A stretch of DNA of 64,000 nucleotides from Escherichia phage saus132 (NC_047884.1), one strand, 5' to 3'; shown: positions 31,381 to 46,314, counted from the stretch's first letter. The notes: a model not told the origin generated them from the sequence alone. Numbers and translations are program-made.

Positions 31381-31401
31381 TTATATTCCCTATTAGTTGT
31401 T

Positions 31402-31653: not shown

Positions 31654-31668
31654 AGTTAATCCAATGTT

Positions 31669-31749
31669 TGGTAGGGATGGAGGGACTCGAACCCACACCC
31701 GAAGACTAGAACCTAAATCTAGCGCGTCTGCCAATTTCGCCACATCCCC
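31669..31749 (-). tRNA. tRNA-Leu (anticodon UAG)
   Basis: anticodon arm CTAGA-TTTAGGT-TCTAG; 9-nt variable region; CCA encoded. Confidence 0.5.
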
Positions 31750-31756
31750 ATTTTAT

Positions 31757-31975: not shown

Positions 31976-31994
31976 ATTATTTCCTTAATTTGTT

Positions 31995-32070
31995 TGGTGG
32001 AGTCACTCAGAATTGAACTGAGTTCCACTGCTTGCAAGGCAGTAAGTTTAACCAAATAACCTATGACCCC
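31995..32070 (-). tRNA. tRNA-Ala (anticodon UGC)
   Basis: G3-U70 wobble in acceptor (GGGGTCA/TGACTCC); anticodon arm ACTGC-CTTGCAA-GCAGT; CCA encoded. Confidence 0.65.
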
Positions 32071-32075
32071 GAATT

Positions 32076-32154
32076 TGGTGGAGAATAACGGAATCGAACC
32101 GTTCTGATGTCCTCGGTGCAAGCGAGGTGTCCACTCCATGCAGACCCATTCCCC
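32076..32154 (-). tRNA. tRNA-Ala (anticodon UGC), second divergent copy
   Basis: G3-U70 in acceptor (GGGGAAT/ATTCTCC); anticodon arm CCTCG-CTTGCAC-CGAGG; 7-nt variable loop. Confidence 0.55.
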
Positions 32155-32509
32155 AAAATCTTTAAGTTTACTAAGGCTATTAGCTCGGTGTGCGTATTAC
32201 CCTCAGACATTATCCAGTAGAGGATAACCGCTCTTCACAAACCCGATACACTATTCAGTTGCCGCTGAATCTAGTGGACTAATCTAGAACTTCTCCCGAG
32301 TCGTAGGGATCGTGCTTTTTGGCAGCCAGTCCTAGGTCGAGCTAATACCTTAGTGAACTAAATTGATGGATATCAGACTAATTTTGCTACGGCGTTTATC
32401 CTGAGGATCTCTTTTTCGGTAGCTCTGCTAGTGTAGACGTCATACACCTGATATCTAGGCAGCTATTTTCACATCAATTTATATAAATATTATAACAAGA
32501 AATTAAGCA

Positions 32510-32863
32510 TTAAGCAAGTACATTTTTAGCGATTTCTTGTAGTTCCTTAACGTCGCTAACGAAAAGGTAATCAGAGCTTCCAGAGTGCATACTCTGCATA
32601 ACCACACCACCATCCGGTGCATCTTCTTTCAAAGTAATACCTAACCAGAACTTGGCAAAACTAGGTGTTACCTCACCTTGACTTGCCTTGAACACATCGC
32701 CTTCTGTGATCTCTTGACCAGTGGAGAGTCCCATGTATGGTACGTTCAGATCAATATCTTTGTAGAACTCAGCTAGATCTTGCTCGAAATCCCAACCTTT
32801 AGAGATAGCGAACTCCATTGTTACATGACCGAAATAGCCTTGAACCTTGCTTGATAATTGCAT
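32510..32863 (-). CDS. hypothetical protein
   Basis: start moved to ATG after AAGGA RBS (track start is TTG). Confidence 0.5.
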   Translation of the reverse strand: MQLSSKVQGYFGHVTMEFAISKGWDFEQDLAEFYKDIDLNVPYMGLSTGQEITEGDVFKASQGEVTPSFAKFWLGITLKEDAPDGGVVMQSMHSGSSDYLFVSDVKELQEIAKNVLA

Positions 32864-32888
32864 TTGCAATTCCTTATTTTGAGTTAAT

Positions 32889-32962
32889 TGGTACTCGGTG
32901 ATAGAATCGAACTATCGCAACCGCCGTGTAAAGACGGGGTTCTCCCATTAAACTAACCGAGC
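32889..32962 (-). tRNA. tRNA-Val (anticodon UAC)
   Basis: T-arm GATAG-TTCGATT-CTATC; anticodon loop TTTACAC. Confidence 0.55.
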
Positions 32963-33095
32963 AAAAGACGTCCTATAATATAGGCTTCAACTACAAATTC
33001 ACAGAAACCTGCTAAAAACATACCTATTGTAAAATCGGCAGAGAATACATAGGAATCTTTTATTTTCTGCTTCATTAAGTAAAACCAGATAGTCA

Positions 33096-33413
33096 TTAAA
33101 ATCTCTCCATTCTAAAGCCAATGAAGTAAGGTGCATTACATGGAACATGCTTAAGATCTTTAAGAGTAATTTTACGTCCTAAGCGTCGTTCCATACAAGT
33201 GAAACATAGAACAATATCTTTGGGCTGCTCTTTTCTTATCTGATCCCAGACCCAATCTTCAACCATACACATTTCATGGTATTGTTCACAGTCTCGACAA
33301 TAGTGACACTGATGTTCTGGTACTTTTTGATTTTTAATACACAGTTCAGTAAAGCGTTTTCCGGCTCTGCCAGACATTTCTGATATTGTTTCTAGAACTT
33401 TGTTAATATTCAT
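33096..33413 (-). CDS. Cys-rich zinc-finger-like protein
   Basis: 105 aa; HQCHYCRDCEQYHEMC and CFTC motifs. Confidence 0.5.
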   Translation of the reverse strand: MNINKVLETISEMSGRAGKRFTELCIKNQKVPEHQCHYCRDCEQYHEMCMVEDWVWDQIRKEQPKDIVLCFTCMERRLGRKITLKDLKHVPCNAPYFIGFRMERF

Positions 33414-33430
33414 AACAAATTCCTTTAAAT

Positions 33431-33509
33431 TGGTAGACCGCCTGGGACTCGAACCCAGAACCTTCCGGTTAAAAGCCGGGTGCTGCTAAACCAATTGAGC
33501 TAGCGATCT
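33431..33509 (-). tRNA. tRNA-Lys (anticodon UUU)
   Basis: T-arm CTGGG-TTCGAGT-CCCAG; anticodon loop CTTTTAA. Confidence 0.55.
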
Positions 33510-33511
33510 AT

Positions 33512-33676
33512 TTAGTACATATATACTTCTTTAATAGAGTAGACTTTTAAGTAAGGATGATTAATACCAAATTCCGCCATCACTTCGTTTTCATCTTTAC
33601 CGTAATGGGCTAGTGGATACTTCTTACGATCTTTGCTAGAACGTAGATCACTTACTTTTAAGCGAAATAATTTCAT
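33512..33676 (-). CDS. hypothetical small protein (54 aa)
   Basis: ATG ORF between two tRNA genes. Confidence 0.3.
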   Translation of the reverse strand: MKLFRLKVSDLRSSKDRKKYPLAHYGKDENEVMAEFGINHPYLKVYSIKEVYMY

Positions 33677-33697
33677 TTCGAAATCCTTCTATTAAAT

Positions 33698-33775
33698 TGG
33701 AAGCGGGTGTAGGAATCGAACCTACCTCTTTCTAGCTTATGAGACTAGCGATCTCTACCAGAGATCTAACCCGCA
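33698..33775 (-). tRNA. tRNA-Met-type (anticodon CAU), mismatched 1-72 pair
   Basis: anticodon arm CTAGT-CTCATAA-GCTAG; T-loop TTCGATT; U1/U72 mismatch. Confidence 0.55.
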
Positions 33776-33781
33776 ATTGTT

Positions 33782-33859
33782 TGGTCTCCGTGGGAGGATT
33801 TGAACCCCCGACCCTACCGCCCCAAACGGAACGCTCTGGCCAAACTGAGCTACACGGAG
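33782..33859 (-). tRNA. tRNA-Pro (anticodon UGG)
   Basis: perfect acceptor CTCCGTG/CACGGAG; anticodon loop TTTGGGG; D-stem GCTC/GAGC. Confidence 0.6.
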
Positions 33860-34336
33860 AATATTATCTTTTTAACCATAGTAAGGTTATACCTAACATG
33901 GTAAATCCAGTACCCAGCCCAATACTTTTTTCTATGAAATTGAAGGTATCAGTATTGACTGCGGTAATTAGTATAGGTATAGACCATAGTACCATGAATA
34001 CTTGAGCTATCTTATATTTCACTTTGCTTTCCTTCTTAACATTTTATAAGATATATTATACAGAGAATTAAGCAAAGTAGCAAATGAATTTTTAATAAAT
34101 TTACTTATTGCGTAGGCCACCTGGAGGGTTCAAGCCCCACGGCTGACAAAGAAGTTTGCGAGACTTCTCTTAAACGCCAGAATAGACCCGCCGATCTATC
34201 GGAACCTACTCAATAAGTAAACTTTCATTTACTTACACCTACCTGGTCGGGAGGATTTTCAGCGACTAGAACCGGCCGGAAACTCATCGCCTTGTTTATC
34301 TAGGAGTCCGTTCTCTAGGAAGCAGAAACCTAAATT

Positions 34337-34410
34337 TGGTGCGGTCGGAGGGAATCGAACCCTCAACTTCTGGTTGGCAACCAAAAATTATACCTTTTAA
34401 CTACGAACGC
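34337..34410 (-). tRNA. tRNA-Gly (anticodon GCC)
   Basis: T-arm GAGGG-TTCGATT-CCCTC; anticodon arm TTTGG-TTGCCAA-CCAGA. Confidence 0.6.
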
Positions 34411-34608
34411 ATAATAAGTCAATCTAGGCAGGACTTGAACCTGCTATCACTTGTGCGGATTTACGAGAACCATTCTTTCACTCGAATCGAACGAGCTTCT
34501 ACCCTCGGCAAGCTGGTGTCCCCTCTCCACCACGCTAGAATGTTTGATAAAGAGTCCGGTGTAGCAATCCGTAAGGGTGCACCTACTGTAGCCTTTACTC
34601 TTTAAATT

Positions 34609-34684
34609 TGGTACACCCACTAGGACTTGAACCTAGAACCCTCCGCTTAAGAGGCGGTAGCTCTAACCATTGAGCTATGGATGT
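34609..34684 (-). tRNA. tRNA-Lys (anticodon CUU)
   Basis: T-arm CTAGG-TTCAAGT-CCTAG; anticodon loop CTCTTAA; D-stem GCTC/GAGC. Confidence 0.55.
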
Positions 34685-34690
34685 ATTATT

Positions 34691-34767
34691 TGGCGCGACC
34701 GATGGGATTCGAACCCACATTCTCTCCCGTGACAGGGGAGTACCATTACCAAGCCAGCCCCGATCGC
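34691..34767 (-). tRNA. tRNA-Asp (anticodon GUC)
   Basis: anticodon arm CTCCC-CTGTCAC-GGGAG; discriminator G; CCA encoded. Confidence 0.6.
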
Positions 34768-34776
34768 ATAATTTGT

Positions 34777-34962
34777 TTACTCAGCTTTGAGTTTTTCGAT
34801 AGCTTCCTCAACCTCTTTTAGAGCTTCACGACGTGCATTCTGTTGCTGCATATCTTGAATTAATGTCAGTTTTTGGTTTTCAATTTCTTGATCCCAAACC
34901 TTAATATTATTAATCAGACTATCACGATCAGCTTCTAGTCGAGCAATTGCACGAGTTGTCAT
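34777..34962 (-). CDS. hypothetical coiled-coil protein
   Basis: 61-aa ORF. Confidence 0.4.
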   Translation of the reverse strand: MTTRAIARLEADRDSLINNIKVWDQEIENQKLTLIQDMQQQNARREALKEVEEAIEKLKAE

Positions 34963-35065
34963 ATCTATTTCCTCAGTTGTTAATGAAAAATGGTATCTGT
35001 GACTGAATTCGATATCAGCAATGATAGCTGGTTGGCTACCGGTTTACTTAACTCTACACAGAATT

Positions 35066-35143
35066 TGGCGGTTCCTGCTGGATTCGAACCAGCAACCCTC
35101 AACTTAACAAGATGCCGCTCTAACCAATTAGAGCTAAGGAACC
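35066..35143 (-). tRNA. tRNA-Asn (anticodon GUU), weak anticodon stem
   Basis: perfect acceptor GGTTCCT/AGGAACC; T-arm GCTGG-TTCGAAT-CCAGC; loop TTGTTAA; two stem mismatches. Confidence 0.5.
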
Positions 35144-35638
35144 ATATAAGTCAGAACTAGAGTTAATACGTTCTAGATATTTACTAAGATCCCTAGAATT
35201 TATACTAAACCACTCATGTTCTTTTAAGTCTTTGAAATATTGGTGAATTTGTTTTTCACCTTTTCGTTTGTCAAACCAAAACGACCAATGCTCTAGTTTA
35301 TAGTCCCTATAAGGACTATAAGTTTGATACTGAGCTAATCTCTCTTTTGGATTTTGACTCATACCTATTTTATACTGGTTTTTCCATGCAGGATTACTGA
35401 TACAGTATACAAAACCTTCAGAAATAGGAAGCTTATTTTCCTGTTTAAACTTTATAAAGGAAAGTGCGGCAAGTTTCCTCGAATACAGAGTATTTGTATT
35501 CTTTTTGGTATTACCACTGGTTCCTGAAAGATTTATATACTCTTCCATAAATCTTTGGATTAGTTCTGTGGTTATGTAGAAAGGCTCATTAGTAACAATG
35601 CCTTTCTCTACCAAGCTGTCAAAAACTTTTGTATGCAC
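35120..35638 (-). CDS. T5orf172/GIY-YIG-like domain protein
   Basis: 172 aa; GFVYCISNP...YKIGMSQNPKERLAQY resembles the T5orf172 core. Confidence 0.5.
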   Translation of the reverse strand: MHTKVFDSLVEKGIVTNEPFYITTELIQRFMEEYINLSGTSGNTKKNTNTLYSRKLAALSFIKFKQENKLPISEGFVYCISNPAWKNQYKIGMSQNPKERLAQYQTYSPYRDYKLEHWSFWFDKRKGEKQIHQYFKDLKEHEWFSINSRDLSKYLERINSSSDLYGSLALIG

Positions 35639-35659
35639 TACTTCTTTCCTTTAGTAATT

Positions 35660-35734
35660 TGGAGCATCCTGTTGGAATTGAACCAACCTAGACGATTTTG
35701 CAGACCGTCACCTAAGCCACTCGGACAAGGATGC
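35660..35734 (-). tRNA. tRNA-Cys (anticodon GCA)
   Basis: perfect acceptor GCATCCT/AGGATGC; anticodon loop CTGCAAA; T-loop TTCAATT. Confidence 0.65.
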
Positions 35735-35737
35735 AAA

Positions 35738-36010
35738 TTAATCTACTTCACACATATCATCATAGCCACAAGTTGGGCATTCCCAATGACATTCGTCATG
35801 CTCACCGCATTGAGCACATTCATAAATCTTTGGCTTTTCAACTTCTTCTAGATTAATAAATTCTAGATCATCGAAGTTACCAATGGATCTGGCATAGTAA
35901 CCATCGCCTGCGTCATAACCTGATTTACCACACTCACACATCTTAAACTCACGCAGATGTGTGAAGATATGTTCAGAGCCACAACACTTAAATTTAACTA
36001 ACTTTTTCAT
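35738..36010 (-). CDS. zinc-ribbon protein
   Basis: 90 aa; several CxxC pairs. Confidence 0.5.
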   Translation of the reverse strand: MKKLVKFKCCGSEHIFTHLREFKMCECGKSGYDAGDGYYARSIGNFDDLEFINLEEVEKPKIYECAQCGEHDECHWECPTCGYDDMCEVD

Positions 36011-36059
36011 TTGCTTCTCCAGTTCAATTTATGTAATAATTATACAGAACTTTAAGCGG

Positions 36060-36347
36060 TTAAGCAACTACATTTTTCAGAAATATGATGCCTTTCTTTT
36101 TCTTCTTATACTTCCACGTTAACGGGTTCTGTCGATTATGAACGCTTGAGATCTTTGTCTCGTCAAAGTTCTTCAATACCATGTAATCACAGGCCAACTG
36201 TTCTAGTGGAATGTGATCTCCGTCAAAAGCGTAAACGTAAGGCTGTTGACTGGCACGATAATGATAGACTTTGTTAATTCTGCGTTTCAGTGACTTATCC
36301 GCACAGTAAATAAAGAAGTTTTCAGGATGCATCAGCATCTCCTTCAA
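36060..36347 (-). CDS. hypothetical protein
   Basis: 95-aa ORF; track start is TTG, a likelier ATG lies 9 nt in. Confidence 0.45.
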   Translation of the reverse strand: MKEMLMHPENFFIYCADKSLKRRINKVYHYRASQQPYVYAFDGDHIPLEQLACDYMVLKNFDETKISSVHNRQNPLTWKYKKKKKGIIFLKNVVA

Positions 36348-36349
36348 AT

Positions 36350-36424
36350 TGGTGCACCCTGTTCGAATTGAACGAACCTCTCAAGCTCTTCAGGCAAGCG
36401 CTAATCCATCTCAGCTAAAGGTGC
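36350..36424 (-). tRNA. tRNA-Phe (anticodon GAA), anticodon stem with two U-U mismatches
   Basis: T-arm GTTCG-TTCAATT-CGAAC; loop CTGAAGA; CCA encoded. Confidence 0.45.
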
Positions 36425-36430
36425 AAATAT

Positions 36431-36507
36431 TGGCAAACCTACTAGGACTCGAACCTAGACCGTACGGTTTTGGAGACCGACATGCTGTCCAGTAACACTC
36501 TAGGAAT
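36431..36507 (-). tRNA. tRNA-Trp (anticodon CCA)
   Basis: T-arm CTAGG-TTCGAGT-CCTAG; anticodon arm TCGGT-CTCCAAA-ACCGT; two U-U mismatches in acceptor. Confidence 0.5.
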
Positions 36508-36515
36508 GCAGAAAT

Positions 36516-36592
36516 TGGCGTCCTGTGCGGGGATCGAACCCGCAAATCCTACCTTGAAAGGGTAGTGACTTTACCAGTTTGTCTAACAGGAC
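36516..36592 (-). tRNA. tRNA-Glu (anticodon UUC)
   Basis: perfect acceptor; T-arm GCGGG-TTCGATC-CCCGC; anticodon arm CTACC-CTTTCAA-GGTAG. Confidence 0.65.
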
Positions 36593-36599
36593 TTAAATT

Positions 36600-36690
36600 T
36601 GGTGTTGGATGATGGAGTCGAACCACCCGAGACCCTTCCGAGTCGGCAGATTTACAGTCTACTTCGCTACCTCTACGATACTAATCCAAC
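36600..36690 (-). tRNA. tRNA-Tyr (anticodon GUA), long variable arm
   Basis: 91 nt; perfect acceptor GTTGGAT/ATCCAAC; anticodon loop CTGTAAA; about 18-nt variable arm. Confidence 0.6.
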
Positions 36691-36879
36691 ATATTTGAAT
36701 GAAAAGTAAGTCGGTTAAACTCAAGGTGGAATATTTCAGGATTTCCTGACTTTACCCCTAAAAGCAACTCGCTTAATTACTTCTCATTCAGATATGTTTC
36801 CAAATTAGATAAATATTATATCAAGTTTTAAGGCACTGAGCAAGTCAAATTTTAAAGAACTTGCTCAGTGCTGTATCAG

Positions 36880-37173
36880 TTAATCAAATGAAGGAGTGAC
36901 TTTCAAAGTGAATGGAAGTTCGAATACCTCTTCACCTTCATCAGTAACAGTGACTACTCGACCCTCTAGCTTATTCATGCTGATTTCAACATCAGCCGTA
37001 GCATCAGGAGCCATACCAGCCTCAATACATTGAGCTTTGATCTCTGGAAGAAGTTCTACATTGTAGAAATAAAGCCACTCGATCTCACCTTCCCAACCAC
37101 CCCAGGATTTACATACTGAGCTTTCAATACCAGTTGCTGCAAAACGTTTTAACATTCTGATTCCTCTCATCAA
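36880..37173 (-). CDS. hypothetical protein
   Basis: 97-aa ORF. Confidence 0.45.
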   Translation of the reverse strand: MMRGIRMLKRFAATGIESSVCKSWGGWEGEIEWLYFYNVELLPEIKAQCIEAGMAPDATADVEISMNKLEGRVVTVTDEGEEVFELPFTLKVTPSFD

Positions 37174-37244
37174 CTTATATAACTATTATAGCAGAAATCT
37201 TAAGCAAAAAGCAAGTACATTTTTAAAATTTCTGCTTGGAGGAG

Positions 37245-37517
37245 TTAAACTCCTGATTCTTCAGCCAGATCAAGCCCAACCAATGTGATTGCCATAATAG
37301 CCGCGCCATGTTCTTTCTCTCCTAGCTCTTTGGCTTGAGTGAGAATATTGAGGAATTGCTTTTGAAAATCTGCAACTTCTTCTGTCATGCCTGCTTCAGC
37401 AATAATTCCTTTCAGCATAAAGCGTTGTGCCGTAATTTCAGGATTAGCCATTTGTTTTCTCCAGTTATTTAGAATGTAAGCCAAACTTAGGATCATAGCG
37501 ATCGTAAGTAGTACCAT
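37245..37517 (-). CDS. hypothetical protein
   Basis: 90-aa ORF. Confidence 0.45.
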   Translation of the reverse strand: MVLLTIAMILSLAYILNNWRKQMANPEITAQRFMLKGIIAEAGMTEEVADFQKQFLNILTQAKELGEKEHGAAIMAITLVGLDLAEESGV

Positions 37518-37602
37518 TAGTTGAAGCCTTGATGCTATGAAAACGACAATACATAAATTTACGCAGTGCTTTCTTAATAGCTTTCATTTTATTTCCTTAA
37601 TT

Positions 37603-37679
37603 TGGTAGGGGTGGTGGGATTCGAACCCACAAAACCTGAATTTTAAGTCCAGTACCTATGCCAATTCGATTACACCCCC
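37603..37679 (-). tRNA. tRNA-Leu (anticodon UAA), short variable loop
   Basis: T-arm GTGGG-TTCGAAT-CCCAC; anticodon loop CTTAAAA; 77 nt. Confidence 0.45.
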
Positions 37680-37687
37680 ATGTAATC

Positions 37688-38041
37688 TTAGCGAATCTCT
37701 AAACCCTGGAAATATCGAGGGAATGGAGAGCCAACTTCAAAATTGATGCCCCAGTTAAGTTCAACGAGTTCAGATTTATTAAGATCTAGGCCATTACCTT
37801 CAAAGATATAGCCGTAAACCGCAGGGAACATAGCTGCTAGATCTTCCATATCGGAATGAGCATTGTGTTCTTCACGTAACTGCTCAAACTCTTCAAAGAA
37901 CTTTTCTAGGAAGAACTCAGGTACGATGAACGTTACCACATCAGTAGAATCATCAGTACGATACACCGTAGCTTGGAACAAGCCAACACCTAAAAGGTTT
38001 ATTGCCGGAGTAGTAAAAATATCCATCTTAACCTCGCTCAA
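37688..38041 (-). CDS. hypothetical protein
   Basis: 117-aa ORF. Confidence 0.5.
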   Translation of the reverse strand: MSEVKMDIFTTPAINLLGVGLFQATVYRTDDSTDVVTFIVPEFFLEKFFEEFEQLREEHNAHSDMEDLAAMFPAVYGYIFEGNGLDLNKSELVELNWGINFEVGSPFPRYFQGLEIR

Positions 38042-38213
38042 TGTCTAGAGAAATACCACATTCAGGATTAATACCAGAACCATTACAATATGTACAAACG
38101 TATGTATTATACCGTGTATCACCGGGTTCAGCATCGTTCCACTCACCTACTCCGAAGCATTTTGGGCAGGCACACTCTTCTAGCTCTTGCTTGAGTTCTT
38201 GAAATTTGGACAT
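38028..38213 (-). CDS. small zinc-finger protein
   Basis: 61 aa; CPKCFGVGEW and CTYCNGSG motifs. Confidence 0.4.
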   Translation of the reverse strand: MSKFQELKQELEECACPKCFGVGEWNDAEPGDTRYNTYVCTYCNGSGINPECGISLDIERG

Positions 38214-38221
38214 ATAGTCTC

Positions 38222-38410
38222 CTAGTTAATTACTTTTGAGGCTTCTAAAGCATTGACGTAGTAAACGTCTTCTACTTTATACATATAGTCTACTACTTTG
38301 TCCATAGCATGTAGTTCAGATGTAGCCTTTACTAGTCTGTACCCTTGTTTAAACTCGTCCGAATGTTCTCTATCTTGTGCAAATTTAACAGAAACTATGA
38401 ATAATTCCAT
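38222..38410 (-). CDS. hypothetical small protein
   Basis: 62-aa ORF. Confidence 0.4.
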   Translation of the reverse strand: MELFIVSVKFAQDREHSDEFKQGYRLVKATSELHAMDKVVDYMYKVEDVYYVNALEASKVIN

Positions 38411-38429
38411 TAGTTGTCCTTATTTAATT

Positions 38430-38507
38430 TGGTGGCTCCCGGAGGATTCGAACCTACCTACCTTTCGCTTATGAGGCGACGGCTCATACCAAATGAGCTT
38501 GAGAACC
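38430..38507 (-). tRNA. tRNA-Met-type (anticodon CAU), third CAU copy
   Basis: T-loop TTCGAAT; anticodon arm GTCGC-CTCATAA-GCGAA; CCA encoded. Confidence 0.5.
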
Positions 38508-38512
38508 AAATT

Positions 38513-38606
38513 TGGAGGAAGATGCCAGATTCGAACTGGCACACCGTGTCTCCACAGCTACTGGCTGTTTAGCAAACAGCTCCCTTACCTTTAGGGTTAA
38601 TCTTCC
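38513..38606 (-). tRNA. tRNA-Ser (anticodon GCU), long variable arm
   Basis: 94 nt; perfect acceptor GGAAGAT/ATCTTCC; anticodon arm GCTGT-TTGCTAA-ACAGC. Confidence 0.6.
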
Positions 38607-39616: not shown

Positions 39617-40309
39617 TTATTTGTTAACGCGTACAAAGTATCCTTTATAGGCTCCCATAATAGAGTTACCTAAGAATACTAGCCACATTGCTAGGATTGC
39701 ATAAGATGCACCTGTAGATTGAGCAGTTACAAGCCAAATGTATACAGTACCAATGTTAATAGCAATCCAGATCAGCCATTGTTCAGCATATTGTTTGACC
39801 ATAAGCCACATAGCAATCACACTACCAACCGCAGTAAATGCGTCAAGCATTGGGAATGGATCAGCGGTAGTAGCAAGGAAGCTGCCGTAACCTAAAGTAG
39901 CTACTGCTAGAATCCCTAGAGTCAGCAGAGCTTGGGCTTTAGTCAGAACCTTAGTTGGAACATCTGGCAGATTACTTGGCTTATTTTTATGCCATAAGTA
40001 CATTCCATAAAACTGCATAGGAACGTAGTATAGCAGGTTTAGTGCAGCGTTACCATAAAGATCTGCGTTTAAAGCTGTAATACCATATGTAAGAACACCC
40101 ACTAAGCCCCAAATATAGTTGGAAACACGTCCTTTTGCAACCAGAATAACACAAACCACATTGGTTATTGCAGTAGCCCAATCTAGAGCTGTACCATTAT
40201 AGTTTGCTAAACTAATGAAGACAACCGCTATGAACAGCCACAGATATTCCAGAGGTTTCCAGTTTTTAAAGTCATTTACGAGATAGTTAGTCATATTAAA
40301 ACTCTCCAA
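39617..40309 (-). CDS. pnuC: nicotinamide riboside transporter PnuC-like
   Basis: 230 aa polytopic membrane protein; SNYIWGLVGVLTYG and WHKN region resemble PnuC. Confidence 0.6.
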   Translation of the reverse strand: MESFNMTNYLVNDFKNWKPLEYLWLFIAVVFISLANYNGTALDWATAITNVVCVILVAKGRVSNYIWGLVGVLTYGITALNADLYGNAALNLLYYVPMQFYGMYLWHKNKPSNLPDVPTKVLTKAQALLTLGILAVATLGYGSFLATTADPFPMLDAFTAVGSVIAMWLMVKQYAEQWLIWIAINIGTVYIWLVTAQSTGASYAILAMWLVFLGNSIMGAYKGYFVRVNK

Positions 40310-41351
40310 CGTTAAAGTGATGAATCAGCCAGTCTACTGCGTTTACTGCTTCGTCCATACGAACTTTGTAGTCCGGGGAGTCGATGTAAACAGTACGCCC
40401 TTCAGGGAACTGATTTGGAAATTCTTTCTTCATCTGCTCGAACAGTTCAGAAGTAATTGAACGATCGGAGTTAATACGTAAACCATCATCTACCCACTTG
40501 ACAGTAGGCGCTAGAACAATTACTAAATCGTAATGTTCTTCTTTTGCAATTGCTGTAACCACAGGGTTCTTACTATGTTCATAAAGTCTGTGGTAGAACT
40601 CAGTAATAAAAGCATTTGTATCCACAAACATGATCTTATTTGCAGTACGTTCTGCTTCAAACTCTAGCTCTTTGTGTCTGAACGCAATTTTACTATAGTC
40701 TTCGCTGGTAAGCAGATTTTCGTTACCAACTAGATCAACTTCACAATACGTTCGGCCATATTCTTCTACCCACGAAGTGTTGTATAGCTTCGCAAGGTAT
40801 TTTGTTAAAGTAGTCTTTCCTGAGCTTTCAGTCCCAATGATTACAACCTTACGCACGTAATCTTTACGAACTACGCTAGGAAGAAACTCCCAATACTTCA
40901 TAAGATCATTACGAATCATTGTAGCTGAGATTGGAACACGAGTCCGATCAGAATCTACAATATAATGACCAAACTTCGGCAGATATTTCTTATATTCTGC
41001 ATCATAGTCTAGTTCGCTAGAGAAAATGGTGATCTCAGGCAAATGTCCGTAATTTTCATTAAGGATTCTAGCATATTCCGGCCAACCATTCGGATATTCA
41101 GGAATATCATCTTCAATAGTGTACTCTACCGAAATGTGCTCAATATCCGCGTAAGTTTGTTCTAACCAACGAAGTCGATTCTTTAACTGTAATACTTCCT
41201 GATCACGTGTGTTCTGCTTATCCAACCAACGATTATCATGACTAACTACAACAATAACTCGTTCACACATAGTTGCTGCTGTGTTTATTAGGTTAATATG
41301 ACCACGCGTTAATGGTGCGAACTTACCAATTACTAGACCAGTCTTAATCAT
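40296..41351 (-). CDS. nadR: NadR-like bifunctional NMN adenylyltransferase / ribosylnicotinamide kinase
   Basis: nucleotidyltransferase motif GKFAPLTRGH; Walker A GTESSGKTTL in C-terminal half; start set at ATG after GAGAGG RBS. Confidence 0.65.
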   Translation of the reverse strand: MIKTGLVIGKFAPLTRGHINLINTAATMCERVIVVVSHDNRWLDKQNTRDQEVLQLKNRLRWLEQTYADIEHISVEYTIEDDIPEYPNGWPEYARILNENYGHLPEITIFSSELDYDAEYKKYLPKFGHYIVDSDRTRVPISATMIRNDLMKYWEFLPSVVRKDYVRKVVIIGTESSGKTTLTKYLAKLYNTSWVEEYGRTYCEVDLVGNENLLTSEDYSKIAFRHKELEFEAERTANKIMFVDTNAFITEFYHRLYEHSKNPVVTAIAKEEHYDLVIVLAPTVKWVDDGLRINSDRSITSELFEQMKKEFPNQFPEGRTVYIDSPDYKVRMDEAVNAVDWLIHHFNVGEF

Positions 41352-41381
41352 ATTTGATTCCTCTCTCAAATTTATAAATAT

Positions 41382-41410
41382 ATTATACAGAGAATTTAGC
41401 ATTCAAGCAA
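41382..41410 (-). promoter_or_regulatory. T5-type early promoter
   Basis: TATAAT 41382-41387, TTGCTT 41405-41410, 17-bp spacer. Confidence 0.6.
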
Positions 41411-41623
41411 TCGAATTTTTTAACTTTTTAGTGGAAAAAATCTCAAGGCATTTAGTGGTAGCACGTTGTTGCTACAATAATAGTATATGATTCTAAAGAA
41501 TTAAAGAATTAAATACTAAAGACCTTAGTTGAATAACTTATGGGCTTTTCTTTTGCCTTAAATACAGAAAAGCCCGCGCTCTCGGAGGAAACGCGGGCTT
41601 ATTTCGAAGATTACGTGTAACTA

Positions 41624-42568
41624 TTACTTATTACGCATATCCATAATCATCTGGCCATCATAACCAGTACCTACAACAGTCTGAGGAACGCCACCCTGAT
41701 ATTTTTCAGCGCGTTTCATATCAACTTCCAGCTGTTTCCAGCGAATCATCTCTGGAGTGATGGTACGCTGCAGAGCGGTGTTAGCTTCAGCTTCTTTCTT
41801 AGCCGCATACAGTTTAGCATCTGCGTCACGTTCGTTAGCTACTGCCATATTTTCACGAGCAGAACGATCAGCCTCAGCTTGCTTAACTTTCTGCTGTGCT
41901 TCTTGTTCAACACGAGCTAGTTCAGCTTTTGCAGCGTTAACTTGTTCTTCACGAACTTTGGTGTTTTGTACCTGTTCCATGATTACCGGTGGCAGAGTAA
42001 TATCCTGAAGGAATACTTGCTTAACGGTGTAGCCATAAGGACGCGCATACTCTTCTACTTCTTGCTGAATAGCGGTTTGCAGTTGAGCCTGAATCTTAGC
42101 GTCGAACAGATCTTGTGCTTTTGGTACAGACTTACCAAACTCACGAATCGTAGACAGCATCTTCTCTTCAACGTACTTGTTCAGAGCTTGATCCTGAGTA
42201 CCTGCGTTAACACGGTTCATAGGAGCTTTAGCACCATCAAACTGCAACATAACGGTAATGTCAACTGTAGACTTAAACTTATCCTGGCTAGGAACCTGAA
42301 GTTTATCCAGTTTCATAGAAATATCTTTCGTACTAAAAGTATCAAAAGAGGCGAATGGGTTGACAATATGGAACCCCGGCAATACAGGATTAGGACTAAC
42401 TTTACCCAGGAAAGTCTGAGTTTTAACCGTACCGTCCTGAACAACTGTATAGGAATTGAGAGCCAGAATAAGAGCGCCAAGACCAACTACAGCACCAACA
42501 CCCCAACGTTTAATAGTACGAATTACTTTTTGATCGGAAGTCAGTTCTTTAGTGTTTTTAGTAAACAT
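41624..42568 (-). CDS. SPFH/band-7 (prohibitin/HflC-like) membrane protein
   Basis: 314 aa; N-terminal TM; FLQDITLPPVIMEQV motif and long coiled coil. Confidence 0.55.
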   Translation of the reverse strand: MFTKNTKELTSDQKVIRTIKRWGVGAVVGLGALILALNSYTVVQDGTVKTQTFLGKVSPNPVLPGFHIVNPFASFDTFSTKDISMKLDKLQVPSQDKFKSTVDITVMLQFDGAKAPMNRVNAGTQDQALNKYVEEKMLSTIREFGKSVPKAQDLFDAKIQAQLQTAIQQEVEEYARPYGYTVKQVFLQDITLPPVIMEQVQNTKVREEQVNAAKAELARVEQEAQQKVKQAEADRSARENMAVANERDADAKLYAAKKEAEANTALQRTITPEMIRWKQLEVDMKRAEKYQGGVPQTVVGTGYDGQMIMDMRNK

Positions 42569-42579
42569 ATATTTCCTTA

Positions 42580-42780
42580 TTATTTAGAAGAGTTAGCTAC
42601 TACAGTTACTTTAGTTGCAGAAATAAACAGGCTAGCATCCACAGCAAATTCAGGAGCTTTGATATCTCCGTTATGAAATATGACTATACCGGAGACTACT
42701 TCAAATGCTAGCGCTGTAACATCGGTGGTATTTACTTGTGAATGTTCACCTACTACTTTTACTATATATCGTGTTTTCAC
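42580..42780 (-). CDS. hypothetical small protein
   Basis: 66 aa, GTG start with AGGAAA RBS, downstream of SPFH gene. Confidence 0.4.
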   Translation of the reverse strand: MKTRYIVKVVGEHSQVNTTDVTALAFEVVSGIVIFHNGDIKAPEFAVDASLFISATKVTVVANSSK

Positions 42781-42806: not shown

Positions 42807-42881
42807 TGGCCGAGGTGACAGGATTCGAACCTGCATAAAGGAATTTAGAAGACTCCTGCCTATCCCTTAGACTACACCCCG
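42807..42881 (-). tRNA. tRNA-Arg (anticodon UCU)
   Basis: T-arm GCAGG-TTCGAAT-CCTGT; anticodon arm GGAGT-CTTCTAA-ATTCC; CCA encoded. Confidence 0.6.
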
Positions 42882-43777
42882 TTTAGGTATTTTTAAGAAC
42901 TCTTATAAAAGCTCTTAAAGATACCCGACGGTAGGTAGGGTCAGCCCCCTCAGATTAAGCTCTGCAGCCCTTCCGTCAGACAATATCTTCCAGTTTAAGT
43001 CAGGGTGACTTTGTGGTTATGTTCTCCGTATGTGAAGAACTCGGTTAGGCTTAGGTCATGACTCCCAGCCTACTGCTGCCGCTCAACAGGAATTATCGCG
43101 AATTACCTGTACTATTGGGCACCATTAGTGACATCTCTCATGTCAGCGTTTCCCACTCTCATATTCACGCGGTCTGTTAGAATCGCACCTCCGATTTTCG
43201 ATGCGAAGCTGGATGCCTAGTCTCAGGTTAAACGGGGCACACACTAGGCAGTGATCCCGAGTTCCGAGTTTGGTTGAGGCCGTCAGGTTTCCTCGTGGTT
43301 TAGCTGTTTCGATTCTAACCTAATACTGATCAGGTGGCGTACCTCCTGAACTGTCATAGTATGTACTCCAGCAGCGAATGCTTATCCGGTATAAGCCCGA
43401 GTTATCTGATTCTTTCCGACCGCAGGATTCGAACCTGCATCTTCCACCAGTTACGGTTTGATATTACCGTTTATACTAGGACGGCAGTGTTATCACATAA
43501 GTCAGTTCGACACCCCACTAACATAAACTAGAGAAGAGTTTACGAGATTTCGGGACAGCTCCCGAGTTTTCCGCAGATTTTCAGTTCCCTATCAATAGCA
43601 ATAAGCGTTAGCTCGTAGCCTCTCTCAGAGTACTTACTAGTCTCCAACTCACCGACTCTATTCAGTGGAATAGCTATCCTAGTAGGAATCACTAAACTCA
43701 CTCAGCGTAATCGGCTCGCTGTTCTCTAATTTATGAATCTATTATACAGAATTTTGAGGCGTTTAGCAAATCAATTT

Positions 43778-44221
43778 TTAATTAAATTCGCCAGCAACCT
43801 GAGCAGCAATGCCACCGTCGTAACGACCAGGAAACTCTTCCTTAATCGCTTTCATCAGCATACCTTTTGTAATCCCAGGGTTCAACTTAACTAATTCTGC
43901 AAAGTATTTGCGAATCTCAGAATCAGATAACTGAGGCGGCAGATACTGTTGTAGCCATTTGTTCAGTATATACTCATACTGAGCAGACTGCAAGCTATAA
44001 TTATCAAGGTCTTGACCGTGAAGTTTAGCTTTCGTCTGATTAATGCTTTTCAGTTGAGCTTTTAGATAAGATACAAACTGTTCAGAAGTAATGAAGTCTT
44101 TATCAACACGCTGAAGATCTCCGATTATGGTCTGGTAGCTTTTAGCTACTTCTTTATCAGAACCATCAACCTTAGATTCCTGCAAAGCCCTACGCAAAAC
44201 ATCTAGAATATTCTCTTCCAT
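43778..44221 (-). CDS. GatB/YqeY-domain-like protein
   Basis: 147 aa; C-terminal MKAIKEEFPGRYDGGIAAQV resembles YqeY tail. Confidence 0.4.
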   Translation of the reverse strand: MEENILDVLRRALQESKVDGSDKEVAKSYQTIIGDLQRVDKDFITSEQFVSYLKAQLKSINQTKAKLHGQDLDNYSLQSAQYEYILNKWLQQYLPPQLSDSEIRKYFAELVKLNPGITKGMLMKAIKEEFPGRYDGGIAAQVAGEFN

Positions 44222-44391
44222 TATTTAATTCCCAGTGCTTGGTTAAAAGATTGTTCTGTCATAACTGCCGAGACTTTAGCGAAATCAAACTTCTTAGGGT
44301 TTGTAGTAATTTCAGCAACGTTAGTAGTTTTAACTGTTTTCGTAGTACGGATACCACGAGTATTAACACCAATAATTACAACTGATTTCAT
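44221..44391 (-). CDS. hypothetical small protein (56 aa)
   Basis: ATG ORF; TAATG overlap with downstream gene. Confidence 0.3.
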   Translation of the reverse strand: MKSVVIIGVNTRGIRTTKTVKTTNVAEITTNPKKFDFAKVSAVMTEQSFNQALGIK

Positions 44392-44459
44392 ATTTCGCTT
44401 CCTCTCATTAATTTATGAAAGTATTATACAGAAATTTAAGGCTTTAAGCAATCGAATTT

Positions 44460-44909
44460 TTAAGTTTTCTTAACCACAGGCTTGTAGAATGTATGGCCTT
44501 GAATCTTCGTTGTTTTCTTAAACTTCTTTGTCCAGTACGGTTTATCTTTACCACTATGGAAGTATAACGCTCCATGTGTTGGATCTTGTGGTAAATCAAC
44601 GTAGTATATCACTCTAGCTAAATTCTTAGCAACTTGCCAAGCCTCATCGGTTTTATCAACTTTTGGTCTCCTGGCCACCCAAGAGAACTGGTTAGACTGA
44701 TATACTACTTTACAGTAAGAATCAGGAAAAGTACCAGAGTTAACACGGTTTTTAGTAACCTGTGCAACTGCGATCATTCCTTTAGTGCCCTCACCTCGTG
44801 CTTCGAAGTAGATATTTTTTGCAATGCAATCAATCTGCTTTGAGTCGTAGGTCGCATGACTATTGAAGCTATAGGTTAGGGCAGCTATTAAAAGCAAAGC
44901 TGCCTTCAT
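44460..44909 (-). CDS. cell-wall hydrolase (SleB/Hydrolase_2-like) with signal peptide
   Basis: NIYFEARGE...GMIAVAQVTKNRV motif; start set to ATG after GGAG RBS. Confidence 0.5.
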   Translation of the reverse strand: MKAALLLIAALTYSFNSHATYDSKQIDCIAKNIYFEARGEGTKGMIAVAQVTKNRVNSGTFPDSYCKVVYQSNQFSWVARRPKVDKTDEAWQVAKNLARVIYYVDLPQDPTHGALYFHSGKDKPYWTKKFKKTTKIQGHTFYKPVVKKT

Positions 44910-44914
44910 TTTAT

Positions 44915-45232
44915 TTACTCCGGCCAATCGTACTCAATACGATTAGGGCTTTCTTGATACCCTTCGTCTAAGAGATCATTACGCATGGTCTCTTTAGCTA
45001 CTGGGTTCGAGGTTACTAGTACCACTTTCTTGGGTCTCTGACCAAATTCTAGGAGTAAACGAAGAATTTGATAACCTTCCATACCATCTACAGCCAGATC
45101 GTTATCCATATAAACGAAATGACCTGTGGTATCGGTTTTATTCAGAAACTCAACAGCGGCTTCGGGGGTTCGAATGATAATGTCCATTCCATGAAGGTTA
45201 CGCACATCATCAATCAGAATATGAAAAATCAT
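44915..45232 (-). CDS. hypothetical protein
   Basis: 105-aa ORF. Confidence 0.45.
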   Translation of the reverse strand: MIFHILIDDVRNLHGMDIIIRTPEAAVEFLNKTDTTGHFVYMDNDLAVDGMEGYQILRLLLEFGQRPKKVVLVTSNPVAKETMRNDLLDEGYQESPNRIEYDWPE

Positions 45233-45675: not shown

Positions 45676-46314
45676 TTACTCTACTTCGATAAAAGTAGAG
45701 GCGTTGGACTCAGACAGAACAAAGTCAACGTTAGTTGCAAAGTCCTGGTATTCTTCGTCGTGTTGCTTGATCAGCTTTTCCAGCTCCAGCGGATCGATCA
45801 GGAACGGAGTGTTCTTGAGTTCCAGCAGGTTAAGCTGCATCTTAACTTCATCCTCGGAAGTCTTCTTGTCGCGGGTAGCCATGGTATCCTGCAAACGCTC
45901 ATACTTGGCATCAAACTGAGCCTTCTGAGTGTTAAACTTAACAGTAGCAGCATGGAACTGCTTACGCATGTTAGCCAGCAACTGAGCCTTGAGTTCCATA
46001 GAACGCTTAGCTTCGATTGCTTCCGCAACAGTCATAGAGCGAGAGCCGATCTCTACAACAGTTTCAGCATTGCTCTTGATCAGCGCAGCTTTCAGACGAT
46101 CACGCTGGGACATCATATCCAGCAGAGACTGGAAATCAGTCTTAATACGAGTAGACAGAGCATCTACTTCGATTGCAGCGCCAACTACAACTTGGTTCTT
46201 GTCCTTACCTTCACCAACAGCAATCAAAAGCTGTTGTTCAGTAGCTTTACGGATTTTAGCTTCCAGAGACTTGATAGTTGCCAGAGCACGAGTTTTAGAG
46301 ATACGAGTAGTCAT
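45676..46314 (-). CDS. coiled-coil protein, GC-rich gene
   Basis: 212 aa; AAGGAAG RBS; codon usage markedly more GC-rich than neighbours. Confidence 0.5.
   Translation of the reverse strand: MTTRISKTRALATIKSLEAKIRKATEQQLLIAVGEGKDKNQVVVGAAIEVDALSTRIKTDFQSLLDMMSQRDRLKAALIKSNAETVVEIGSRSMTVAEAIEAKRSMELKAQLLANMRKQFHAATVKFNTQKAQFDAKYERLQDTMATRDKKTSEDEVKMQLNLLELKNTPFLIDPLELEKLIKQHDEEYQDFATNVDFVLSESNASTFIEVE

What the first reader, a model, noticed from the sequence alone, without database searches (positions are those of the whole stretch)
41624..42780. SPFH (prohibitin-like) membrane protein with small downstream partner
A 314-aa band-7/SPFH protein is followed by a 66-aa ORF that could be an NfeD-like partner. 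SPFH proteins organise membrane microdomains; a phage copy may modulate host membrane proteases or superinfection exclusion.
Basis: partly seen in the sequence, partly recalled or inferred. Interest (0 to 1): 0.4.

Follow-up and report, generated by a model that had tools for sequence, protein, structure and literature searches.

The report
Phage SPFH membrane protein, no partner
A T5-like phage carries a real, already-annotated SPFH (prohibitin/HflC-like) inner-membrane scaffold gene that lab phage T5 can lose, and the small neighbouring ORF is an unrelated, lineage-restricted insert rather than an NfeD-type partner.

Summary
The window is the left 64 kb of a published T5-like phage (Epseptimavirus, 100% identical to MF431736). 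Both ORFs exist at the stated coordinates, but on the minus strand, so the 66-aa ORF lies upstream of the SPFH gene, not downstream.

**SPFH call: confirmed**
- Pfam Band_7, E=8e-20.
- The AlphaFold model shows TM, SPFH, a long coiled coil and C-terminal strands.
- It aligns over its full length with erlin, prohibitin, HflK/C, stomatin and QmcA cage protomers.

**NfeD-partner idea: not supported**
- The 66-aa ORF has no NfeD, Pfam or PDB similarity and no TM segment.
- It is an orphan found only in a subset of Epseptimavirus-type phages.
- It is a clean ~205-nt indel, uncoupled from the SPFH allele.
- It carries a nonsense codon in one phage.
- It is absent from every other phage or bacterial genome that has this SPFH clade.

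**What the SPFH gene is**
- It is phage T5 gene T5.080. The viable T5 st0 deletion strain lacks it.
- It is under strong purifying selection and is shared at 55–80% identity among unrelated virulent phages.
- I read it as an accessory, early-expressed, probably periplasm-facing SPFH cage. Its target is unknown.

Already annotated; low-to-moderate interest.

The parts
41624..42568 (-). SPFH/Band-7 protein gene, 314 aa, 35 kDa. It is the orthologue of phage T5 gene T5.080.
   Evidence: ORF. Pfam Band_7 E=8.1e-20; phrog_200 E=3.5e-85. AF2 model has pLDDT 77.5. Foldseek gives full-length matches to erlin, PHB, HflK/C, stomatin and QmcA. The DT57C annotation equates it with T5.080.
42443..42505 (-). 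Single N-terminal transmembrane helix (about aa 22-42), preceded by a basic 21-aa tail.
   Evidence: Best KD19 window is residues 24-42, score 1.81. The N flank has 6 K/R against 2 in the 20 aa after the TM. AF2 places a helix at 11-37.
41897..42421 (-). SPFH (Band_7) domain, aa 50-224.
   Evidence: Pfam envelope 50-224. AF2 shows beta strands at 40-110, helices at 112-178 and a strand at 180-191.
41702..41989 (-). Long Ala/Glu/Lys/Gln-rich helices (aa 194-269 and 272-289). They correspond to the CC1/CC2 wall of SPFH cages and are followed by a conserved C-terminal strand region, GGVPQTVVG...MDMR.
   Evidence: AF2 helices H194-269 and H272-289, strands 299-301 and 307-309. AEKQR fraction is 0.64 in aa 201-275. 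The C-terminal motif is nearly invariant in 29 homologues.
42580..42780 (-). 66-aa orphan ORF (phrog_11609) located upstream of the SPFH gene. Probably coding, dispensable, and not an NfeD.
   Evidence: ORF. No family hits; phrog_11609, function unknown. Two protein clusters only. Codon-position bias and pN/pS 0.1-0.33, but a nonsense codon at codon 4 in phage MSP1. Clean indel relative to T5, DT57C and the S124-like locus.
42807..42881 (-). tRNA-Arg(UCU), apparently in the same transcription unit, immediately upstream of the two ORFs.
   Evidence: ARAGORN. Rfam tRNA 49.3 bits. 74-75 of 75 bases identical in 9 relatives.
42882..43740 (-). ORF-free region homologous to 'rnaX' (stable RNA of unknown function) of T5-type phages. 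It contains a tRNA-like element at 43414-43485.
   Evidence: DT57C annotation. Alignment A3. Rfam tRNA 29.3 bits, at the gathering threshold.
43741..43769 (-). Sigma-70-type promoter-like site (TTGCTA-17-TATAAT) that would drive rnaX, tRNA-Arg, the 66-aa ORF and the SPFH gene.
   Evidence: 10 of 12 consensus positions matched. This is a consensus match only; transcription was not shown.
41570..41600 (-). Intrinsic terminator-like hairpin (12-bp stem, 7 GC pairs, T-run) 24 nt after the SPFH stop codon. It closes the unit before the separately promoted NadR-like gene.
   Evidence: A terminator is annotated at the equivalent place in PP836394 and S114.

Best explanation
The 314-aa gene is the Epseptimavirus orthologue of phage T5 gene T5.080. 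It belongs to a small, divergent, stand-alone clade of the SPFH superfamily, closest in architecture to prohibitin, erlin and HflC.

**Shown**
- It has one N-terminal TM helix, an SPFH domain, a ~95-residue coiled-coil wall and a conserved C-terminal strand segment. This is the full parts list of the cage-forming SPFH protomers.

**Inferred**
- The basic N-tail stays in the cytoplasm and the body faces the periplasm.
- It self-assembles into a homo-oligomeric dome over a patch of host inner membrane.
- It is made early, from a sigma-70-type promoter, on one transcript with rnaX and tRNA-Arg.
- It improves infection under natural conditions by corralling or stabilising envelope components. Candidates are the control of FtsH-type proteolysis, lysis timing or lysis inhibition, and resistance to membrane damage. 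It is not needed for basic lytic growth.

The 66-aa ORF is a separate small gene of unknown function. A ~205-nt indel placed it between tRNA-Arg and the SPFH ribosome-binding site in part of one phage lineage. It is not an NfeD homologue and not a co-evolving partner.
For: **Identity**
- Pfam Band_7, E=8e-20.
- PDB sequence hits: QmcA 3e-7, prohibitins ~1e-4, HflC 7.5e-3.
- AF2 pLDDT 77.5, with the elements TM 11-37, SPFH 40-191, helices 194-269 and 272-289, and C-terminal strands.
- Foldseek full-length alignments (270-310 columns, 14-20% identity) to erlin1/2, PHB1/2, HflK/C, stomatin, QmcA and flotillin cages.

**Topology**
- 6 K/R before the TM against 2 after it. The N flank is richer in K/R in 19 of 29 homologues.

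**Selection**
- pN/pS is about 0.02-0.09, and 130 of 161 variable sites are at third codon positions.

**Spread**
- 722 phage records: T5-like, RB16/RB43-type and Aeromonas T4-like, Privateer/7-11-like and Vibrio phages.
- Chromosomal stand-alone homologues in Morganella and Providencia (55-58% identity) and in methylotrophs (35-41%), among housekeeping genes.
- Absent from 5,426 E. coli genomes and 72,556 plasmids.

**Dispensability**
- The T5 st0 deletion genome lacks the gene.

**Envelope hint**
- A SleB-like secreted hydrolase lies beside it in three siphophage or other lineages. The rI antiholin lies beside it in two T4-like lineages.

**Transcription unit**
- Promoter-like site and terminator-like hairpin.

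**Small ORF not a partner**
-.
Against: - No experiment or multimer model shows oligomerisation.
- Topology rests on the positive-inside rule, which is only modest across the family: 19 of 29 homologues.
- The best sequence match in the PDB is QmcA, whose SPFH domain is cytoplasmic, so the orientation could be the opposite.
- The neighbour associations (SleB-like hydrolase, rI, NAD-salvage genes) lie in hyperplastic accessory regions and may be coincidental.
- No hit to any known defence or anti-defence family, and no functional literature was found.
- The physiological target is therefore a guess.
- The AF2 model of the 66-aa protein is unusable (pLDDT 41.8), so a cryptic OB-like fold cannot be formally excluded.
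Confidence: 0.6

Rival explanations
1. One reading: an SPFH-NfeD-type two-gene module, in which the 66-aa protein is a minimal NfeD that docks on the SPFH assembly, as YbbJ does on QmcA.
For: The two ORFs are 11 nt apart on the same strand, in one apparent transcription unit. The small protein is predicted to be mostly beta, as an OB fold would be. NfeD genes often precede their SPFH gene (PMC2636767).
Against: - No NfeD/PF01957 hit at E<=10.
- No similarity to any PDB chain, a set that contains the QmcA-YbbJ complex.
- No TM segment.
- It is an orphan with two clusters in 5.8e9 proteins.
- Its presence is uncoupled from the SPFH allele. It is absent from T5, DT57C and S124-like phages and from all other lineages and bacterial homologues.
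- One phage carries a nonsense codon in it.
- NfeD partners are described only for the SPFH1/2/5 subfamilies, not for the prohibitin/HflKC-like ones.
Confidence: 0.04
2. The phage SPFH protein is specifically an HflK/C mimic or competitor. It would cage or displace host FtsH and so change the turnover of FtsH substrates (membrane proteins, LpxC, sigma-32, phage proteins).
For: It shares architecture and probable periplasm-facing topology with HflK/C and with prohibitins, both of which enclose AAA proteases (PMC12048511 and PMC2636767, seen). One GenBank record labels it 'modulator of FtsH protease HflK'.
Against: - No NCBIfam HflK or HflC hit, even at E<=1.
- HflC is only a marginal PDB hit (E=7.5e-3), behind QmcA and the prohibitins.
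- It is a single gene, not a K/C pair.
- Sequence identity to HflK/C is 17-19%.
- There are no interaction data. The GenBank label is an automatic annotation.
Confidence: 0.2
3. It is a lipoprotein of the Llp type that blocks the phage receptor (superinfection exclusion). RefSeq and PHROG label it 'lipoprotein', and one paper speculates this.
For: phrog_200 and several RefSeq records carry the label 'lipoprotein'. PMC12887010 suggests an Llp-like role.
Against: The protein contains no cysteine at all, so it has no lipobox. 27 of 29 homologues are also Cys-free. It is an SPFH-fold protein with a TM anchor. It occurs in phages that use quite different receptors.
Confidence: 0.03
4. The 66-aa ORF is not translated. 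In this reading the ~205-nt insert is a non-coding spacer or RNA element between tRNA-Arg and the SPFH gene.
For: - Synonymous divergence is only about half that of the adjacent SPFH gene, suggesting possible nucleotide-level constraint or a recent sweep.
- Phage MSP1 has a nonsense codon at codon 4.
- Several annotators did not call the ORF.
- It sits in an RNA-rich region.
Against: - 14 of 25 variable sites are at third codon positions, and pN/pS is 0.1-0.33.
- The start codon toggles between two valid starts.
- The Shine-Dalgarno sequence is conserved.
- The frame is intact in 9 of the 10 variants read codon by codon.
- tblastn covered the full 66 aa, with no gap in coverage, in all 193 records.
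Confidence: 0.15

Closest known systems
Prohibitin-like / HflC-like stand-alone bacterial SPFH proteins ('SPFH4'-type in Hinderhofer et al. 2009, PMC2636767); eukaryotic prohibitins and erlins
   Same: Single N-terminal TM anchor, SPFH domain, long coiled coil and C-terminal segment. Probable orientation away from the cytoplasm. Single-gene cistron without NfeD. These are the top structural matches (erlin1/2 and PHB1/2, E 5e-15 to 1e-12, full length).
   Different: Only 15-20% identity. It forms its own narrow clade: 34 clusters at E<=1e-30 and 175 at E<=1e-10 out of 1.84e9 representatives. Members are carried mainly by virulent phages. No NCBIfam model recognises it. No AAA-protease link has been demonstrated.
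E. coli HflK/HflC-FtsH complex
   Same: Type II membrane topology (inferred), SPFH plus coiled-coil cage architecture, and a historical link to phage biology (lambda CII stability).
   Different: One gene rather than a K/C pair. HflC is a marginal sequence hit (E=7.5e-3). HflK/HflC family models do not match. The gene sits in a virulent phage that has no lysogeny decision.
QmcA-YbbJ (SPFH-NfeD) and other stomatin/flotillin-NfeD operons
   Same: QmcA is the best sequence hit in the PDB (E=3e-7 with the family profile). A small ORF sits beside the SPFH gene in one operon.
   Different: The small ORF has none of the NfeD features: no Pfam hit, no TM, no co-occurrence. The predicted topology is opposite to that of QmcA.
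Phage T5 gene T5.080 and its homologues RB43 ORF139c / RB16p130 / Privateer gp101
   Same: The same family at 55-92% identity. Already annotated as SPFH/band 7 in GenBank, and listed in Pfam tables of T4-like genomes in 2006 (PMC1524935).
   Different: Nothing substantive. The window's protein is 100% identical to those of phages bombadil and Seafire.

Membership tests
SPFH / Band 7 superfamily (PF01145) | Significant match to the Band_7 profile above the gathering threshold | tested here: met
   E=8.1e-20, 72 bits against a 23.6-bit cutoff, residues 50-224.
SPFH / Band 7 superfamily (PF01145) | N-terminal membrane anchor followed by the SPFH alpha/beta domain and a coiled-coil region | tested here: met
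   KD19 score 1.81 at residues 24-42. AF2 elements. Full-length Foldseek alignments to solved SPFH protomers.
SPFH / Band 7 superfamily (PF01145) | Assembly into a large ring or dome oligomer on a membrane | not testable with these tools
   Only a monomer model could be made. The conserved C-terminal strand motif is compatible with assembly but does not prove it.
HflK/HflC (FtsH modulators) | Match to the HflK or HflC family models | tested here: not met
   No NCBIfam hit at E<=1. HflC is only E=7.5e-3 in the PDB profile search, over the N-terminal 50 residues.
HflK/HflC (FtsH modulators) | Paired hflK-hflC genes forming a hetero-oligomer | tested here: not met
   One SPFH gene only in the unit. 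Homologues in other phages and in bacteria are also single.
HflK/HflC (FtsH modulators) | Physical association with FtsH | not testable with these tools
   Needs pull-down or cryo-EM.
NfeD (PF01957) partner of SPFH proteins - for the 66-aa ORF | NfeD C-terminal OB-fold domain detectable by profile or structure | tested here: not met
   No Pfam hit at E<=10. No PDB chain hit other than chance L23 matches at E~1.5. The AF2 model is too poor to test the fold (pLDDT 41.8), so the structural half is inconclusive.
NfeD (PF01957) partner of SPFH proteins - for the 66-aa ORF | Hydrophobic membrane-spanning segment(s) | tested here: not met
   The best 19-residue window scores 1.39 and contains Asp and Glu.
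NfeD (PF01957) partner of SPFH proteins - for the 66-aa ORF | Conserved co-occurrence or co-evolution with the SPFH gene in one operon | tested here: not met
   193 records carry it against 722 with the SPFH gene. 2 of 28 T5-like IMG/VR loci have it. The indel is independent of the SPFH allele. It is absent beside all other homologues.
Bacterial lipoprotein (the database label 'lipoprotein', Llp-like) | Lipobox with an invariant cysteine after a signal peptide | tested here: not met
   Zero cysteines in the protein. 27 of 29 homologues are Cys-free.
Known anti-phage defence proteins (PADLOC) | Match to a defence-system protein model | tested here: not met
   Only a chance DpdA hit at E=0.18.

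The most novel reading that the evidence does not exclude
This phage-borne SPFH clade would be a horizontally traded 'membrane armour' or lysis-timing module. In this reading, a periplasm-facing cage built early in infection does one of two things. It either sequesters a host inner-membrane machine such as FtsH, or it shields the membrane from pore-forming abortive-infection effectors, superinfecting phages or premature holin action. That would explain why unrelated virulent phages (T5-like, T4-like, Privateer-like) keep near-identical copies next to envelope and lysis genes although the gene is dispensable in the laboratory.
Probability: 0.2. Interest if true: 0.6.

Novelty: already known. 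Interest (0 to 1): 0.22.

Why it matters
SPFH cages are under active structural study, and no function has been assigned to a virus-encoded one in the literature I could search. A clade that virulent phages exchange and conserve strongly, yet can lose in the lab, is a reasonable candidate for a host-interaction or counter-defence gene. T5 st0 against wild type already offers a natural knockout.

The finding as written adds nothing new. The gene is already annotated as SPFH in identical genomes, and the proposed partner is not one.

A practical by-product is an annotation correction. The widespread 'lipoprotein' label (phrog_200, RefSeq) and the 'modulator of FtsH protease HflK' label are unsupported by the sequence.

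Tried and rejected
- **AF2 of the 66-aa protein.** Run from the single sequence, because only near-identical homologues exist. It gave pLDDT 41.8, so I did not attempt a fold search for an OB/NfeD fold.
- **Deeper homologues of the 66-aa ORF.** Three searches: 5.8e9 proteins, IMG/VR and phmmer --max against 1,628 neighbour ORFs. They returned only near-identical copies.
- **A conserved neighbour of the SPFH gene.** I clustered ORFs in 110 loci. The one cluster shared between the bacterial groups, c16, turned out to be generic ABC ATPases joined by single linkage and was rejected.
- **SPFH and NAD-salvage genes travelling as a cassette.** NadR-like here and NatV in RB16 are different families, and the gene here has its own promoter and terminator. 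Rejected as a functional link and kept only as a note.
- **Literature.** Searches for T5.080, T5p078, phage-encoded SPFH and prohibitin in T5-like phages found no functional study. The proteogenomic paper on phiR2-01 does not mention the gene.
- **Other libraries.** PADLOC and NCBIfam gave nothing.
- **Weak Rfam hit.** The Thr_leader hit at 41493-41607 is just the terminator hairpin.

Full report
**Source and observation**

The 1.6 kb around the finding is 100% identical, at the same coordinates, to Bacteriophage T5-like chee130_1 (MF431736, Epseptimavirus, Demerecviridae). It is 98-99.9% identical to dozens of Salmonella and Escherichia T5-like phages.

Both ORFs exist as described: 41624-42568 (314 aa) and 42580-42780 (66 aa, GTG start). 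Both are on the minus strand, so the 66-aa ORF is upstream of the SPFH gene, not downstream.

The sequence and the consensus scans suggest one transcription unit on the minus strand:
- a sigma-70-like promoter (TTGCTA-17-TATAAT) at 43769..43741;
- about 860 nt without ORFs;
- tRNA-Arg(UCU) at 42881..42807;
- the 66-aa ORF, with AGGAAA 8 nt before its start;
- 11 nt of spacer, then the SPFH gene (AAGGAAATAT-ATG);
- a strong hairpin plus T-run at 41600..41570.

The NadR-like gene further down has its own promoter-like site. Transcription itself was not shown.

**The SPFH protein**

Family and fold:
- Pfam Band_7 matches residues 50-224 at E=8.1e-20, 72 bits against a 23.6-bit cutoff.
- PHROGs places the protein in phrog_200, E=3.5e-85. 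NCBIfam, which has HflK/HflC models, and PADLOC give nothing.
- Against PDB sequences the family profile hits QmcA (3e-7), the prohibitins (~1e-4) and, marginally, HflC (7.5e-3).
- An AlphaFold model built on 29 homologues (pLDDT 77.5) shows helix 11-37, a beta-rich then alpha/beta SPFH body at 40-191, a 76-residue helix at 194-269, a second helix at 272-289, and short C-terminal strands.
- Foldseek aligns the model over nearly its whole length (270-310 columns, 14-20% identity) with the cryo-EM protomers of erlin1/2, PHB1/2, HflK/C, stomatin, QmcA and flotillin, at E from 5e-15 to about 1e-7.

The protein therefore has every element of a cage-forming SPFH protomer, but it belongs to none of the named subfamilies.

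Topology and lipidation:
- The TM segment is residues 24-42 (KD 1.81).
- There are 6 K/R in the 21 residues before the TM and 2 in the 20 after it.
- The same bias holds in 19 of 29 homologues.
- By the positive-inside rule the body probably faces the periplasm, as in HflK/C, prohibitin and erlin. This is inference only.
- The protein has no cysteine. The 'lipoprotein' label of phrog_200 and RefSeq, and the Llp-like role suggested in PMC12887010, are therefore wrong.

**Distribution**

- The word-indexed protein search found 187 clusters. The listed ones are all phage-like, at 54-92% identity.
- tblastn finds the gene in 722 of 50,697 phage records:
  - T5-like phages of both Epseptimavirus and Tequintavirus; in DT57C the gene is cross-referenced to T5.080;
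  - RB16/RB43-type and Aeromonas T4-like phages;
  - Privateer/7-11-type phages;
  - some Vibrio phages.
- The RB43, 44RR and Aeh1 copies were already listed as SPFH/Band 7 in 2006 (PMC1524935).
- The exhaustive HMMER scan of 1.84e9 representatives shows a narrow clade: 34 clusters at E<=1e-30, 175 at E<=1e-10 and 936 at E<=1e-3.
- GTDB genomes hold chromosomal homologues in Morganella and Providencia (55-58%) and in Methylococcaceae, Methylophaga and other Gammaproteobacteria (32-41%).
- In those bacteria the gene stands alone among ordinary genes: accD-folC, ndh, ABC-F, TetR and oxidoreductase, microcin export. No NfeD and no recurrent small neighbour is present.
- There is no DNA match in 5,426 complete E. 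coli genomes and no protein match in 72,556 plasmids. The phage therefore brings in an SPFH type that E. coli, one of the recorded hosts of these phages, shows no DNA-level copy of.

**Selection and dispensability**

- Across 10 Epseptimavirus variants the SPFH gene has 161 variable sites, 130 of them at third positions, and pN/pS of about 0.02-0.09. This indicates strong purifying selection.
- The genome of the classical viable deletion strain T5 st0 (AY692264, 113,238 bp) lacks the gene.
  - The annotated st0 recombination site joins truncated T5p066 to truncated T5p079.
  - The wild-type locus aligns only up to position 2860, inside T5.081.
  - tblastn with the SPFH protein finds nothing in the st0 region.
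- T5.080 is therefore an accessory gene, not needed for lytic growth on laboratory E. coli.

**The 66-aa ORF**

Similarity:
- No Pfam hit even at E<=10, and no NCBIfam or PADLOC hit. The only family is phrog_11609, of unknown function.
- No PDB chain resembles it (E<=10 returns only chance L23 hits). That PDB set contains the QmcA-YbbJ SPFH-NfeD complex.
- No TM segment: the maximum KD19 is 1.39, in a window containing D and E.
- The single-sequence AF2 model is unusable (pLDDT 41.8), so the fold cannot be judged.
- In 5.8e9 proteins it has two clusters, both more than 93% identical. IMG/VR adds two identical copies.

Occurrence:
- In phage GenBank records it occurs in 193 records, all 93-100% identical in DNA.
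- Alignment A2 shows a clean ~205-nt indel between the tRNA-Arg 3' flank and the SPFH ribosome-binding site.
- T5, DT57C and S124-like phages lack it. The S124-like phages carry an SPFH allele 98.4% identical to the window's.
- Shigella phage SHSML-45 has it together with the T5-type SPFH allele (90.8%).
- Only 2 of 28 T5-like IMG/VR loci carry it.
- The small ORFs that flank the SPFH gene in other lineages are unrelated to it and to each other. These are Privateer gp100 and a prepilin-like 79-aa protein plus DUF1190 in Aeromonas phages.

Is it a gene at all? Probably:
- 14 of 25 variable sites are at third positions, and pN/pS is 0.1-0.33.
- The start codon toggles GTG/ATG, and the Shine-Dalgarno sequence is conserved.

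Against that, phage MSP1 has a stop at codon 4. Synonymous divergence is also about half that of the SPFH gene.

I conclude it is a dispensable, lineage-restricted small gene (moron-like insert), not an NfeD and not a co-evolving SPFH partner. This also fits the published survey in which NfeD partners accompany only the stomatin-, flotillin- and YqfA-type subfamilies, and none was found for HflK/C- or prohibitin-like ones (PMC2636767).

**Mechanism**

Shown:
- SPFH family membership.
- The complete protomer architecture.
- Strong constraint on the sequence.
- Horizontal sharing among unrelated virulent phages.
- Dispensability in T5 st0.

Inferred:
- Early expression from the sigma-70-type promoter, together with rnaX and tRNA-Arg.
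- N-in/C-out topology.
- Self-assembly into a dome over a patch of inner membrane, by analogy with every solved full-length SPFH protein.

What the cage does is unknown. The only contextual hints are envelope and lysis neighbours:
- A secreted SleB-like hydrolase (PF07486) and a cREC-domain gene lie within 1-2 kb in T5-like phages, Privateer-like phages and a 153-kb phage.
- The rI antiholin and rI.-1 lie next to the gene in RB16-type and Aeromonas T4-like phages.

These are plastic accessory regions, so the associations are weak evidence.

My best guess (confidence 0.6 for the overall statement, far lower for any specific target) is an accessory membrane-organising cage. It would stabilise or partition envelope components during infection. 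FtsH modulation (0.2) is the leading specific rival.

**Novelty and verdict**

- Identical proteins are already annotated 'putative SPFH domain-containing protein/band 7 family protein' (bombadil).
- The family has been noted in phage genomes since 2006.
- I found no functional study.
- The finding's distinctive claim, a small NfeD-like partner, does not hold.
- Interest is low to moderate. The gene is a reasonable knockout candidate, but nothing here would surprise a specialist.

Noticed in passing
window 42882-43740 (-), with a tRNA-like element at 43414-43485: About 860 nt with no ORF lie between a promoter-like site and tRNA-Arg. The stretch is homologous to 'rnaX, stable RNA with unknown functions' annotated in phage DT57C. 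It shows blocks of near-identity, a tRNA-like element that only just reaches the Rfam tRNA threshold (29.3 bits; called tRNA-Sec or tRNA-OTHER in other records), and an extra ~180 nt at the 5' end in this phage. Relatives carry an HNH endonuclease or a 170-aa ORF inserted here.
   Followed up: partly
window 39617-41402 (-): An NAD+ salvage pair sits directly after the SPFH terminator: a NadR-like NMN adenylyltransferase/ribosylnicotinamide kinase (AAA_28 plus CTP_transf_like) and a PnuC transporter. T5 and DT57C lack it at this position. RB16-type T4-like phages have a different NMNAT (NatV-type, with Nudix) immediately after their SPFH gene. This is probably coincidence in plastic regions.
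   Followed up: partly
window 43778-45232 (-): A block of four small accessory genes: cREC_REC (cyclic-phosphate processing receiver domain, E=1e-14), a SleB-like cell-wall hydrolase (PF07486) with an apparent signal peptide, DUF7616, and a YqeY/GatB-like protein. The cREC plus SleB-like pair recurs within 1-2 kb of the SPFH gene in Privateer-like phages, there beside RtcB and an AAA ATPase, and in a 153-kb phage.
   Followed up: partly
window 41624-42568 (-) and public annotation: The family carries inconsistent database names: 'lipoprotein' (phrog_200, many RefSeq records), 'modulator of FtsH protease HflK', 'putative membrane protease' and 'hypothetical protein'. The lipoprotein name is impossible because the protein has no cysteine, yet it has already led a 2026 paper to suggest an Llp-like receptor-blocking role.
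   Followed up: yes
window 42580-42780 (-) compared with loci L007-L016: The small ORF shows lower synonymous divergence (pS 0-0.18) than the adjacent SPFH gene (pS 0.04-0.39) in the same phage pairs. It occurs with both SPFH allele types. This suggests recent spread by recombination or some nucleotide-level constraint.
   Followed up: partly
window 29041-38606 (-): A dense cluster of 27 tRNA genes, typical of T5-like phages. tRNA-Arg(UCU) at 42807-42881 is a separate outlier next to the finding.
   Followed up: no
window 38028-38213 (-) and 45676-46314 (-): The GenBank record names a 61-aa ORF in the tRNA region 'antitermination protein Q' and a 212-aa early-region ORF 'tail fiber protein'. 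Both names look unlikely for their size and position. I did not check them.
   Followed up: no
L006 3388-4236 (Aeromonas phage avDM4): In Aeromonas T4-like phages the SPFH gene is followed by a 79-aa protein with a weak prepilin-type N-terminal methylation motif (PF07963, 18.2 bits, below the 21.2-bit gathering cutoff) and a DUF1190 protein that starts like a lipoprotein. The 2006 tables list 44RR ORF097c (methylation motif) next to ORF098c (SPFH). This is a lineage-specific envelope-related neighbourhood.
   Followed up: partly
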